Assembly (NCBI GenBank): GCA_951406725.2 | Contig: OX597821.1 | Span: 81,282,001-81,346,000 of the forward strand | DNA from: Octopus vulgaris | Taxonomy: Eukaryota | DNA length: 64,000 bases | Direction: 5' to 3' | In this document: in pieces, positions 56,571-62,500 of the stretch | Numbering within the stretch: position 1 is the stretch's first letter | Layout of the letters: each line of letters begins with the position of its first letter | Notes under the pieces: model-generated | Told to the model about the DNA's origin: nothing | What the model saw: the letters and a program-made list of their open reading frames with translations, nothing else | The model's database searches: none | Program-made: the position numbers and the translations under genes

Positions 56571-59500
56571 GTTAGAACATTCATCATGACCCTAGCTGTA
56601 TTTTCCTCAACTTATTTTTCCCAGAGGCACCAGCAAAAAGCAGTAAAAATAAATTTTCAACCAAAACTTTTAACAATTTTCAAGATGGAGAAATCACCAC
56701 TGTTTGCAAACAGGCGTTATATCCCCTTCTAGCGACGAGTGAGTTTTTGTTAAAACTTTTGTTTTCTTTATTTCACCATCGATGAAAAAAAATATTTTGT
56801 TGATATACGGGCAACACACACACACGAACACATATGCGTACAAAAAACATGTATGCAATAGGTGTACGTACATATGTGTGTGTGTTGCCCATATATATAT
56901 AGAAACCAATTTCAATGGATTTTGCCCAAATTTGACATCGATGTTACTTAGTTTGGTTTGAAATAAAGAACTTGATTCGCTTAATAATCCTTACTTAATC
57001 CCGGGCAAAGCTGGGTTATACTGCTATGCCAGCGCCGCCCCAACTGGCTTCCATGCCGGTGGCACATAAAAAGCACCATCCGCTCGTGGCAGTTTGCTAG
57101 CCTCGTCTGGCACCTGTGTCAGTGGCACGTAAAAAGCATCCACTACACTCATGGAGTGGTTGGCGTTAGAAAGGGCATCCAGTCGTAGAAACATTGCCAG
57201 ATCAGACTGGGCCTGGTGCAGCCTTCTGGCTTCCCAGACCCCAGTTGCACCGTCCAACCCATGCTAGCATGGAAAGTGGATGCTAAACGATGATGATGAT
57301 GATATATATATATAGCAGGAAAGCGGGAGAGAGAAAGAAGCTAATTTTTAATTGTAAATGTTGATTCAAATGACTACTGTAGATATAAAAAGAAAGAAAA
57401 TAGCAATATCAAGTAACATGGATTTAGAACAGAAAGATGTTCAGGTGTGCTGTTTACCTGAGAGACTTTTCGATTGTATAACAAGTTCTCCATCACCAAC
57501 AAATCCTGCTTCATTACTGTGCTGGTCTGATTGTTACGAAAACCTATCGTATAAACTCCTAGAATCTTTGCAAGAACTGTTGGTTTCTGAAAAATTAACA
57601 ACCAAAACAAAAACATTAAAAATCTTTATATTTATGCAAAAGTGCATCACAAATTAAACAATTACTTGGAAATTATAATTATTATTGTTGTTGTGTGAGC
57701 AGTATGAGATGTGATGTTGTATCATCCAAATTATCTTCCTGATCAAAACAACTTCACTTTGTGGTGCAGCTGTTCCTTTAAAACTGGACATGAAAAGGTG
57801 ACAAAAGCAGGAAAAAACTGGAAATCTTAAAATGCAGTAACATCAAGGAAGGTTTTTCTCAGAGAAGGGTCTTGTACCAAATTTTAGTCTCTACTTTCTA
57901 AATCTCTTCTGAGAAAGTTTCTATGTGGCCACTCAAATAGTTAAAATCAGCAACTGAATCTCTTCCAAATCATATTCTAAAAAACACCTTAGAAATTGTA
58001 TGATGTAGTCCTAGATACATTTAGTCCGAGGGGAAGAAGACAGGACACTGATGGCTTCATTGAAGGCTTGCTTGCTTAAGACATAAATGGTACTAAATGA
58101 CAACAAAGAATATATTTTCTTCCTGACTTTAATTCATAATAATGTCAAAGGCCATTCAAGAACCAACTAAGGAACAGTTGGATGACCACTCAACCTGCTG
58201 GAAGTAGCAGCCAAACCTCATTCAATCTTACAAAAGAAAAAGAAAAAACAATTTGAACAATGTATATCTAAAGATAAAATTGGATAGTCATAGAGCTGGA
58301 CTACTTTTGATCAGAAGTCTGACCAATGAAAGCAATTGTTCATGAAGTAAAATGTATGACCAGGATTATAAAGCAGAACATTAAGAGACTTACTTGTTCT
58401 AGGTAAGCTTTGGTAATGTATTGGAAATAGTTGGGTGCAAACACTTGGAAAGAACCTGCCTCTGCATTAGACATCTGTTTCAGGATGAAACGATTATCTG
58501 TAAAATTCAACAAAAATAACAAATAATGGTATAAAAAAGCAATATATACACAAACAAAATTTTAATCTTTTCCAGTGCCTCTGAAAGAAATATATTTATT
58601 CAAGCATTTTGGTATTAAATGATGCTCAAATATCTGTAACTTCTTAAAGTTAATGTTTGGCTTTTATCTGTTGCCTTAAGAATGTAAGTAAACAACTATT
58701 AAACAAAAAATTTTTGCTAATATTTTTAAAAAAAATGTATGCAATATTTATTATGGATTTAACATCAAAGAAACAATATTCTCAACAAGACTGAGGGAGT
58801 GAAATAGAAGAAAACAACACAGAAGCAAACTAGATGCTTTACAAAATGCTTAGAAGATGGCTGTCATTAATCTGCCTGAGTCATCACCAAACTAATGTCA
58901 TCTTGAAAAAAATCCAGTCACTGGAGATGGATGCAAAGGGATGATGGAACCTGGTCAGAGAAATGATGTACAGGTGTGAAGCAGGTTAATGATGTTTGCC
59001 TGTAGGCAAGTCAAACCTGCAGGACTCCACAATTTGAATGGTGGTGATGATTTCCTGTGATGAAAGGACTTAAGACTGAATGTAAATGGTTAAATACTAG
59101 TCAATTCATCCAGTGGGGGCAAGGGGATCGCATCAGTAATAGGTATGCATTCTATCTAATGACCCCTATCATCCTACTGGTGACCAGTATAGGGAACTTT
59201 CAAAAGGCAGCACTGGCATAAACAAGTTGCTTGCAACTGCTAGTAATTTATTTTATCTATCAATTCTAAAAATTCTCTTTTTAGGAATAATAAAAGGAGT
59301 CCAAAGGCTGGTTCTCTTTCTTCTCCAAGCAAATTAAAAGGCTTTGTACTTAAGAAGAAATCAATATCTTCAGTAAAAGAGAGAGAAACATATTCAGTTC
59401 TTAATACTCTGGTTATGAAACTTGAGTTACAGCCATATCACGTTGAAAGCACCAGTTCTCAACCGATCACCGAAGTTAAGCAATGTCCAGCCTAGTTAGT

Positions 59501-62500
59501 ACTTAGATGGGTGACCGCTTGGGAAACCTAGGTGCTGTAAGCGTCACACATTTTAATGGCGGTGCATCAGCATGGCTGAAACTACAGCAAAAACAAAACA
59601 AAAATGACTGAATCTTTGTGGTGAAAAATAAAAATAAATAAAGAACCAGAAGATATTTACTGAGAAAATTTGAATGTCCTGACTGAGCTCCATATTACTT
59701 GTTTTTGTTATTTATCTAACAAGTTTAACATATTTTCTAACTTAGCAATAATTATTAGCTTATTAATATTTTTATAAAATCTATCTTTTAAATTTTCTAT
59801 GAGTGGCTGTGTAGTAAGTAGCTTGCTTACGAACCACATGGTTCTGGGTTCAGTCCTACTGCGTGGCACCTTGGGCAAGTGTCTTCTACTATAGCCACGG
59901 GGCTGACCAAAGCCTTGTGAGTGGATTTGGAAGACGGAAACTGAAAGAAGCCTGTTGTATATATGTATGTGTGTGTATTTGTTTGTGAGTCTGTGTTTGT
60001 CCCCTCAACATTGTTTGACAACCGATGCTAGTGTGTTTACTTCCCCGTAACTTAGTGGTTTGGCAAAAGAGACCACTAGAATAAGTACTAGGGTTACAAA
60101 GAATAAGTCCCAGGGTCAATTTGCTCAACTAAAGGCAATGCTCCAGCATGGCCACAGTCACATGACTGAAACAAGTAAAAGAGTAAAGAGTAAAAGAGAA
60201 TAACCAATTAAAAAGAATATCTCAGGAATTTATTCTAGAAATCCTTTGAGCTGATCTCCTAATTTTAATAATTATGAACGCATTATAAGGAGTTTGTTAT
60301 TTATAATTTTCATGTTTGTTTCCTGTCTTAGAAGTCATATGGCAACGTCACTGGTGCTGGTTGCACTCAAGAAGCACTCAATACACACTGCAAAGTGGTT
60401 GGCATCAAGAAGAGCATCCAGCCATGGAAACCATACCAAAGCTGACATTGGAGCTTGACACAGCCTTACGGATTGCCAGATCCTGTCAAACCAGCATGGA
60501 AAATAGACATTAAATGTTGATAATGATAATGATCATGGTGATGATGATGGTGGTGATGATGATGGCGATGATGATATATATGTATTTATGTGTGTGTGTA
60601 TTTAAAAGTTTTTGCGAAAAATACTTGATTCAATCATAATATTTAAAGAAAGATTTTCTTAAACATTATGAACTATTTGAAAATAATTTTTTTGGAAACC
60701 GTAACGTCTCAAATCTTATGGAAAGATTTATATATTTATACACATACATAGGCAGTATGGCACCGACATGAGTGGCAGCAGGCCATAAAAGGAAGAGTAA
60801 GTCAGCCGTTCTGCAGGACATTGGATAACTGATACGGCAGAGGAGTCGTAGACCAACTGTTTGATGGTTATTGTGATCAAATAAAATGTCTGATGGTTAT
60901 TGTGATCAAATGAAATGTCTGTACCATCAGACAACAGTTGGATGTCAAGCAGCAAGTGAGTTGCTACGGTAGGGCAGCCTGCACTCTTGTACACTACTTG
61001 GTATTTAGTATGGAGGCCCAGAGAAGCAGTTTGGTGGCAGTGGAGGATGCCAACAGCATTACTTACTGTCCAAGGGCATTTTGTTCAGAGAAGTCTGAAC
61101 AGAACAATCAATGTCAATTTATAATGGACAGCTTCCACACCCGATATATATGTGTGTGTGTGTGTGCATACAGACATGTATATGTGTGTGTTGTTTTGCA
61201 TTCATGATTTACACCAAACAGATTTTTTTCAGAGCTATGATTTAAAAGGCCAAGTCTACAGAAATATGTATACATACCACAGGTCTTTGAAAAAGCTGAT
61301 CTCGATTTTCCACCTTTAGCCGACCAATGTTGACAGTGATTCATTGAGCGAATAAAACTGAAACAGATGACATGAATAATATGGTCATATTCCAAAATAA
61401 CAAAAAATGGCACCATTATTACCATCAAGTGAAGGAACTACCATCAAGGGAAGTGGGGCAGCACAGAAATGGTAAATAGTTTACAGCACAAAAGAAATCA
61501 CTTTAAACTAGCTATAATAGTATTGAAAGTGGTTTATATGATTGGAACTATAATTTCAAAGTAGTCATGGTGTCATAGTTAATTGCGAAGACTTTGCAAT
61601 TAAAAAAAGTAGAAAACTTTTCAAATATAAAGTGGAAGTATACAAAAATAAACATTATTTTCTATCTTACTGTTAGTTTTGTTTCATTTTGGAAAATATA
61701 TTTATTTTATGGTTTATTATTGTTTATATTTTGAATTGCATATATATATGAGGCCACCAAAATCTTTTAAGTGCTTAGGGTCTTTATGGGTCTTATTCCA
61801 GCTCAGTGCTAGACATGCCCATCACTAAGGAGGTACACTGGACAGCACTACTCCCACACTATTCAATGGTGCACCCTCAGATTTAGAAAATACAGTTTGC
61901 AAAAAACCTTCCCACAATACATGGTTCCAGATTCCGTCCTATTGCAAGTGGGACTGAACCCATTTGGGCAAGTGTCTTCTACTATAGCCTCGGGCTGACC
62001 AAAGCCTTGTGAGTGGATTTGGTAGACGGAAACTGAAGGAAGCCCATCGTATATATGTATATATATATATGTATGTGTGTATATATGTTTGTGTGTCTGT
62101 GTTTGTCCCTCCAACATCACTTGACAACCGATGGTGGTGTGTTTACATCCCCATAGCTTAGTAGTTCGGCAAAAGAGACCGATAGAATAAGTACAAGGCT
62201 TACAAAGAATAAGTCCTGGGGTAGATTTGCTTGACAATAATATCTTATTCCCACATGAAACTTCAAGACTTAAAAATGAAAATTTATTTTTCTATATATG
62301 CAAAAATTTGAATGAAGATATTACAGGTCTGAGGTGTCACATCTGAACTCAAATCCCTCGTTGCAACAAAAACAAAATTGTTACAGTTACTTACACATCT
62401 TCTCCGGCAGGAAATACCAAAGAACGTAGTTGTCTGAAATGTTCAGCGAAATGTACACGGCAATAGAAACGAGATGAGGAATCAGAAAATTCTAGAAAAT

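What the first reader, a model, noticed from the sequence alone, without database searches (positions are those of the whole stretch)
59425..59612. Divergent 5S rRNA copy fused to the SINE-A/LINE-type 3' tail: candidate 5S-derived SINE
Seen: 15 nt after the 5S end comes GGCGGTGCATCAGCATGGC...AAATGACTGAA, matching the tail of SINE family A in this window (GGCGGTGCTCCAGCATGGCC..AAATGACTGAAAC). The 5S keeps its helices (TTACAGC/GCTGTAA, CCTAG/CTAGG) and appears, against the typical metazoan 5S as I recall it, to carry paired compensatory changes. Established: SINE3 elements are a 5S Pol III head plus a LINE-recognised tail. Inference: either a 5S-headed SINE family sharing a partner LINE with SINE A, or a one-off template-switch chimera. 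A T4 run at 59551-59554 could end Pol III transcription before the tail.
Basis: partly seen in the sequence, partly recalled or inferred. Interest (0 to 1): 0.7.

Follow-up and report, generated by a model that had tools for sequence, protein, structure and literature searches.

The report
Hundreds of separate 5S–LINE fusion fossils
This is a decayed copy of 5S ribosomal RNA joined to the last ~50 bases of a jumping gene; it is one of at least 75 such fusions in this genome, each with its own seam, likely made one at a time when the jumping gene's copying enzyme hopped onto an unfinished 5S RNA, so it is probably not a self-spreading new element.

Summary
The 5S copy (59425-59543), the trailer, the T4 run and the retroposon tail are real. 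The tail is not SINE A's: it ends a CR1-like LINE subfamily, with a private 13-nt deletion, and the final AAATGACTGAA is probably flank. The 'compensatory' changes belong to the species' 5S; this copy's own changes are decay. It is neither a SINE3 family nor a one-off. The genome holds at least 75 5S+short-tail fusions and at least 53 5S+whole-SINE fusions. Junctions differ (73 distinct strings in 75 copies), trailers match individual genes of the real 5S cluster, and no mutations are partner-specific. Nearly every dispersed 5S copy is such a fusion. The seam lies at the base of the tail's first hairpin, where headless LINE copies also stop (22 of 30 in one subfamily) and where U6 and pre-tRNA heads are joined. 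Best reading: repeated template jumps by the LINE reverse transcriptase onto U-ended precursor 5S RNA. This is a known kind (U6/L2 in platypus, 5S/L1 in mammals), here with a fixed jump point and a record of an older 5S gene type. The scan already noted similar fusions elsewhere in this genome.

The parts
59425..59543 (+). 5S rRNA retrocopy of the older gene type (G61, A102, G119). The first 2 nt differ from 5S, so the insert likely starts at 59427. Decayed.
   Evidence: Rfam 92.2 bits; 12 of 119 differences to cluster gene L119; 8 differences to the old-type majority
59544..59550 (+). 3' trailer of the precursor 5S RNA (TCACACA type)
   Evidence: Shared by 50 dispersed copies fused to different partners; analogous gene-specific trailers follow the cluster genes
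59551..59554 (+). T4, likely the copied U-tail of the Pol III transcript; would also terminate read-through
   Evidence: Run length after this trailer varies from 2 to 8 in 66 copies
59555..59576 (+). LINE 3' tail from the jump point: AAT (parent AAC, CpG decay) plus hairpin 1
   Evidence: Parent LINE upstream sequence; hairpin fold and covariation
59577..59588 (+). LINE terminus; hairpin 2 lost by a 13-nt deletion just before this stretch
   Evidence: Alignment; the deletion occurs at only one other place, on a plain LINE copy with another end
59589..59604 (+). A-rich (CAAAA)n tail; likely 3' end of the insertion
   Evidence: Same tail on LINE copies L292 and L294
59605..59612 (+). Probably genomic flank, not part of the element
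   Evidence: This 8-mer follows 0 of 60 sampled LINE tails; no target-site duplication seen

Best explanation
The element is a dead chimeric retrocopy, likely made in one insertion: the reverse transcriptase of a CR1-like LINE likely primed on its own RNA tail, copied about 50 nt to the base of the first hairpin, then jumped onto the U-ended 3' end of a precursor 5S rRNA and copied it to its 5' end. Shown: the anatomy, the LINE parent, the recurrence with different seams, gene-specific trailers, no partner-specific mutations, and a shared stop point at the hairpin base. Inferred: template jumping rather than RNA ligation; why copying stops there (a stall, or an RNA trimmed to the protein-protected tail); and that the copies stay silent because they lack the upstream element of the true genes.
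For: Parent: the tail ends a family with 1003 exact tail matches; one copy has a 1038-aa endonuclease + RT ORF ending 22 nt before the tail. Recurrence: of 153 distinct dispersed 5S copies gathered (set enriched for short tails), 75 have a short tail, 53 a SINE A head, 12 other SINE heads, 1 a second 5S, 12 other. In samples not selected on the partner, 23 of 25 and 29 of 29 copies have a repeat directly 3', in the sense direction where its orientation could be read. Independence: 73 distinct junction+tail strings in 75; the 22 least diverged copies all differ; 20 of 43 new-type copies carry at least 7 nt of trailer identical to one of several cluster genes. Copies with the same partner share no more non-CpG changes than others (0.061 vs 0.097, p=0.98; 0.051 vs 0.087, p=0.84). 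Jump point: 22 of 30, 5 of 30 and 22 of 30 tail copies in three subfamily samples lack the LINE body (6 of the last 22 break inside hairpin 1). U6 and a tRNA sit at the same seam. Jump signatures: a 5S-5S-retroelement triple with one extra A; an extra G before 5S position 1 in 30 of 66 copies vs 14.5% in flanks, p=2e-9. Non-templated addition is required for R2 jumps (PMC8857657, abstract).
Against: Mechanism is inferred from DNA fossils only. Part of the junction variety in old copies can be later T-run slippage and decay. A master identical to the 5S gene would leave no diagnostic mutations; three T3 copies and seven SINE A fusions share the simplest junction. No convincing target-site duplication was found (7 of 69 non-simple repeats of at least 7 nt vs null mean 2.9, max 8), so single-step insertion is not shown by a footprint. 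The source gene of the TCACACA trailer is absent from the assembled cluster. The CR1 label rests on recalled motifs, not on a tree.
Confidence: 0.8

Rival explanations
1. A true 5S-headed SINE (SINE3) family, or a small one hidden among the chimeras, amplified from master copies by the CR1-like LINE.
For: Head + CR1-type tail is the SINE3 layout (PMC4994717, passage); copy number may exceed 100 (75 gathered; about 300 old-type 5S copies by a rough overlap estimate from 5 shared hits); 39 of 66 old-type copies have only T2-T3 at the seam and could read through.
Against: No diagnostic substitutions, which SINEBase names as the practical test against pseudogenes (PMC3531059, passage); trailers and tails mix freely; tail-bearing LINEs far outnumber chimeras (1003 and 1851 exact tails), the pattern expected for independent chimeras (PMC4494074, passage); this copy's deletion is not shared by any other 5S copy; this copy has T4.
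Confidence: 0.08
2. RNA ligation (RtcB type, as for U6/L1) joins precursor 5S to a cleaved LINE tail fragment, and the joined RNA is then retrotransposed.
For: Shown for U6/L1 (PMC6789731, search listing only); a fixed cut at the hairpin base would also explain the hotspot.
Against: The same 5S ends are joined to intact 5' ends of SINEs and of 5S itself, which should carry triphosphates, and pre-5S should end in 3'-OH (both recalled, not tested). Headless tails stop at the same place with no RNA partner.
Confidence: 0.09
3. Two steps: dispersed 5S copies arose first and LINE or SINE pieces later inserted at their T-run.
For: These elements favour AT-rich and (TA)n sites (33 of 69 5' flanks end in ATAT/TATA); no duplication brackets the unit.
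Against: Partnerless copies are almost absent (1 of 25 and 0 of 29); the 29 cluster copies examined, with longer T-runs, show no such insert directly after the T-run; heads are variably 5'-truncated as after reverse transcription.
Confidence: 0.03

Closest known systems
U6/L2, U6/Mon-1 (platypus) and U6/L2, U6/RTEX, U6/AnolisSINE2 (anole) template-switch chimeras (PMC4476161, passages)
   Same: Pol III RNA placed 5' of a short tail of a stringent LINE or of its partner SINE; recurrent separate events; short or absent duplications.
   Different: Head is 5S, mostly full length with precursor trailer (platypus U6 heads are mostly 5'-truncated); invertebrate host; CR1-like LINE; one fixed jump point shared with headless copies.
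5S/L1 chimeras of mammals (PMC11838501, passages)
   Same: 5S rRNA joined to a LINE 3' part in separate events.
   Different: Those are frequently antisense and truncated, about 10.5% of 253 chimeras, with 7-15 bp duplications; here sense, with 3' trailer, and nearly all dispersed 5S copies are chimeras.
SINE3 / AmnSINE1 (5S head, CR1-recognised tail; PMC4994717 and PMC4494074, passages; the 2003 original not read)
   Same: Same module order and tail type; these fusions look like the birth step.
   Different: No body, no master, no diagnostic changes, heterogeneous seams.
R2 reverse transcriptase end-to-end template jumping (PMC8857657, abstract)
   Same: Serial jumps and extra non-templated bases at seams.
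   Different: Shown in vitro for an R2 enzyme; untested for this endonuclease-type LINE.

Membership tests
SINE3 (5S-derived SINE) | 5S-derived head, at least 60% identity over at least 60 nt | tested here: met
SINE3 (5S-derived SINE) | 3' tail shared with a partner LINE | tested here: met
SINE3 (5S-derived SINE) | At least 100 interspersed copies with the same modules | tested here: inconclusive
   75 short-tail copies gathered, split over at least 3 tail types; no full census possible
SINE3 (5S-derived SINE) | Descent from a master: shared junction and substitutions absent from the RNA gene | tested here: not met
   73 of 75 junction strings distinct; no partner-specific alleles; deletion private
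SINE3 (5S-derived SINE) | Pol III transcript that runs from head through tail | not testable with these tools
   T4 at the seam in this copy; no confirmed RNA run available
Small-RNA/LINE chimeric retrocopy | Small RNA 5' of, and in sense with, a 5'-truncated LINE or a SINE | tested here: met
Small-RNA/LINE chimeric retrocopy | Each copy an independent event drawn from the cellular RNA gene | tested here: met
   Gene-specific trailers in 20 of 43 new-type copies; star-like divergence
Small-RNA/LINE chimeric retrocopy | One target-site duplication around both parts | tested here: inconclusive
   No excess of non-simple duplications; none seen for this copy
CR1-group LINE (the partner) | Endonuclease + RT ORF2 | tested here: met
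   PF14529 and PF00078
CR1-group LINE (the partner) | Clade placement on an RT tree | not tested
   No named reference set at hand; label from recalled C-terminal motifs

The most novel reading that the evidence does not exclude
The LINE's ~50-nt double-hairpin tail acts as a detachable priming cassette: its reverse transcriptase habitually stops at the base of hairpin 1 and jumps to any free RNA 3' end. A stringent LINE thereby retroposes 5S, U6 and pre-tRNA and has built hundreds of ready-made SINE3 prototypes, all stillborn because this animal's 5S genes need an upstream element that retrocopies lose. That would make testable what limits the birth of 5S-derived SINEs.
Probability: 0.35. Interest if true: 0.62.

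Novelty: new variant of a known kind. Interest (0 to 1): 0.38.

Why it matters
The locus itself is a dead copy. The class shows the proposed birth step of SINE3 repeating many times without take-off, gives a precise stop-and-jump point on a LINE RNA that can be tested in vitro, and preserves precursor 5S 3' ends and an older 5S gene type not found in the assembled cluster. It also warns that repeat annotation can call such fusions a 5S SINE family.

Tried and rejected
SINE A as tail donor: rejected. Tail as ordinary 5S spacer: rejected, cluster spacers differ. Shared-deletion subfamily: rejected. Apparent shared 3' end with L186: not supported, TACAGC-ending copies have unrelated downstream sequence. 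Target-site duplications: no clear signal beyond (TA)n tracts. Expression: no RNA holder listed; laid contigs cannot show transcription. ARAGORN found no tRNA in the window or in 35 tail loci; Rfam found one. Whole-5S minimum-energy folds were uninformative, and single tail folds had weak z-scores of -1.0 to -1.8. Pfam found nothing in the L208 partner. The protein homolog search gave no clade name. Paper searches listed no report of 5S/LINE chimeras in cephalopods; subscription papers, Repbase and Dfam entries, and the supplements of PMC13282606 (which lists one recently active 5S-class SINE family) were not seen and could already describe them.

Full report
Observation. Rfam places a full 5S rRNA at 59425-59543. 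It is followed by a 7-nt trailer, T4 at 59551-59554, AAT and a tail starting at 59558. The window lies on contig C8 of a 2.8-Gb animal genome; that it is an octopus is my inference from the repeats and agrees with the scan's notes.

The true genes. A 51-nt 5S pattern gave 45 hits, 20 of them in one cluster at C4:35.21-35.29 Mb. These share an upstream AT-rich element (27 of 28 cluster copies with a 5' end, against 1 of 101 dispersed copies) and end in gene-specific trailers followed by long T-runs. The finding differs from a cluster gene at 12 of 119 sites. Most features that looked divergent are this species' 5S. Against the majority of its own type the copy has 8 differences, 5 of the 6 internal ones in CpG dinucleotides. 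It keeps 31 of 37 listed pairs against 35. It is decaying, not co-evolving.

The tail. The tail with this loop has 1003 exact matches. In 25 of the first 30 it ends a longer element, and one copy holds a 1038-aa ORF with endonuclease and RT domains ending 22 nt before the tail. I call it CR1-like from recalled motifs only. A sister subfamily (about 70% amino-acid identity) and SINE A carry related tails. All fold into two adjacent hairpins, with two-sided changes at 3 of 13 pairs across 9 distinct, related sequences; these are few independent events. The finding matches the subfamily that ends TACAGC plus CAAAA repeats, with one 13-nt deletion. That deletion occurs at one other place, on a plain LINE copy. 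So the insert runs from about 59427 to 59604, and the likeness of 59602-59612 to SINE A's tail is probably coincidence with flank, though this is not proven.

How many, and of what kind. A pattern over the 5S end and this trailer gave 50 dispersed hits and no array. Read by eye, 38 continue into the 5' end of SINE A, 8 into a short tail, 2 into other SINE heads and 2 into other repeats. A 5S-end + tail pattern gave 52 hits. In all I gathered 153 distinct dispersed copies, enriched for short tails by my searches: 75 short tail, 53 SINE A, 7 and 5 two other SINEs, 1 second 5S, 12 other. In two samples chosen on 5S sequence alone, 23 of 25 dispersed copies and 29 of 29 distinct copies (from 30 loci of 32 hits) have a repeat directly downstream; short tails are 5 of 25 and 7 of 29. 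A rough overlap estimate from 5 shared hits gives about 300 old-type copies.

Master or separate events. Among 75 short-tail copies, 73 trailer+junction+tail strings are distinct; SINE A fusions show 39 strings in 53, the simplest one 7 times. Decay explains some of this, but the 22 least diverged copies also all differ. Trailer types and tail types mix in most combinations. Of 43 new-type copies, 20 carry at least 7 nt of trailer identical to a cluster gene, from several different genes, and L173 and L179/L208 also match that gene's internal variants. Copies with the same partner share no more non-CpG changes than copies with different partners (old type n=77, p=0.98; new type n=40, p=0.84). 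By the SINEBase criterion (PMC3531059, passages) and Kojima's argument (PMC4494074, passages) these are RNA-gene retrocopies, not a SINE. A master identical to the gene cannot be excluded by mutations alone.

Two ages. Copies with the TCACACA trailer, G61 and G119 are 5.2% diverged; copies matching the present cluster are 2.2% diverged (p=5e-9). The old type shows no cluster in this assembly, so the finding likely records a 5S gene type since replaced, or one not assembled. Contigs of two coded runs with different organism labels (X15, X16) cover the 5' flank and 47 nt of the 5S; one of them may be the source sample.

The jump point. Short tails begin 1-4 nt before hairpin 1. Tail copies without any LINE body are common: 22 of 30, 5 of 30 and 22 of 30 in three samples (6 of the last 22 break inside hairpin 1). 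In the first two samples only one other copy breaks within 85 nt upstream. A whole U6 and a tRNA with an insert lie at this seam; a second U6, a tRNA-like head and a further 5S appear by eye. Signs of end-to-end jumping: a 5S-5S-retroelement triple with one extra A between the 5S copies, whose partner resembles RT/GIY-YIG clusters (no Pfam hit), and an extra G before 5S position 1 in 30 of 66 copies. R2 jumps need non-templated addition (PMC8857657, abstract). No target-site duplication signal was found beyond (TA)n tracts.

Mechanism. Likely: priming at an AT-rich site on the LINE tail, copying through two hairpins, a stop, and a jump onto the U-tail of pre-5S. Ligation is less likely because intact Pol III 5' ends are also partners. 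Why none amplified is inferred: 39 of 66 old-type copies lack T4 at the seam, so termination alone does not explain it; loss of the upstream element could. That such an element is required is recalled from other animals and untested here.

Comparison and verdict. The kind is known: U6 with L2, Mon-1, RTEX and AnolisSINE2 (PMC4476161, passages), 5S with L1 (PMC11838501, passages), double jumps in a fungus (PMC2104539, listing only). PMC4758252, PMC9115989 and PMC13282606 (passages) do not describe it in the passages seen; the last lists one recently active 5S-class SINE family that I could not compare. New here are full-length sense precursor 5S heads, near-universal fusion, one fixed jump point and a two-age record. 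The scan noted like fusions in this genome before. New variant of a known kind; interest 0.38.

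Noticed in passing
G000:C4:35.207-35.293 Mb (L117-L136): 5S gene cluster with genes in both orientations, several trailer types and a shared upstream AT-rich element; all 26 full copies examined have A61, a C-A mismatch in helix II where the older type pairs.
   Followed up: partly
L179/L208 (C25:5355022-5355202, minus strand): Two perfect 5S copies in tandem, each with trailer, joined to a 5'-truncated open RT frame that resembles Penelope-like elements (label partly recalled).
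   Followed up: partly
L239, L246, L258, L277, L299 (just 5' of the central tail): U6 and precursor tRNAs with trailers, one with an intron-like insert, fused to the same LINE tail point.
   Followed up: partly
L241-L268 and L271-L300: Most copies of two LINE subfamilies consist of the ~50-nt tail alone, often inside (TA)n tracts.
   Followed up: partly
L091, L093, L103, L111, L181, L187: A-rich stretches between a trimmed 5S end and the partner, possibly fossils of oligo(A)-tailed 5S RNA.
   Followed up: no
L201: The first part of the tail is present twice at the seam, as after a restart of copying.
   Followed up: no
L178: A lone 5' half of a 5S gene with the cluster's upstream element on another chromosome, likely a DNA-level copy.
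   Followed up: no
window 59811-60190: A nearly full SINE A copy 200 nt downstream; a separate insertion, one of several in the window.
   Followed up: partly
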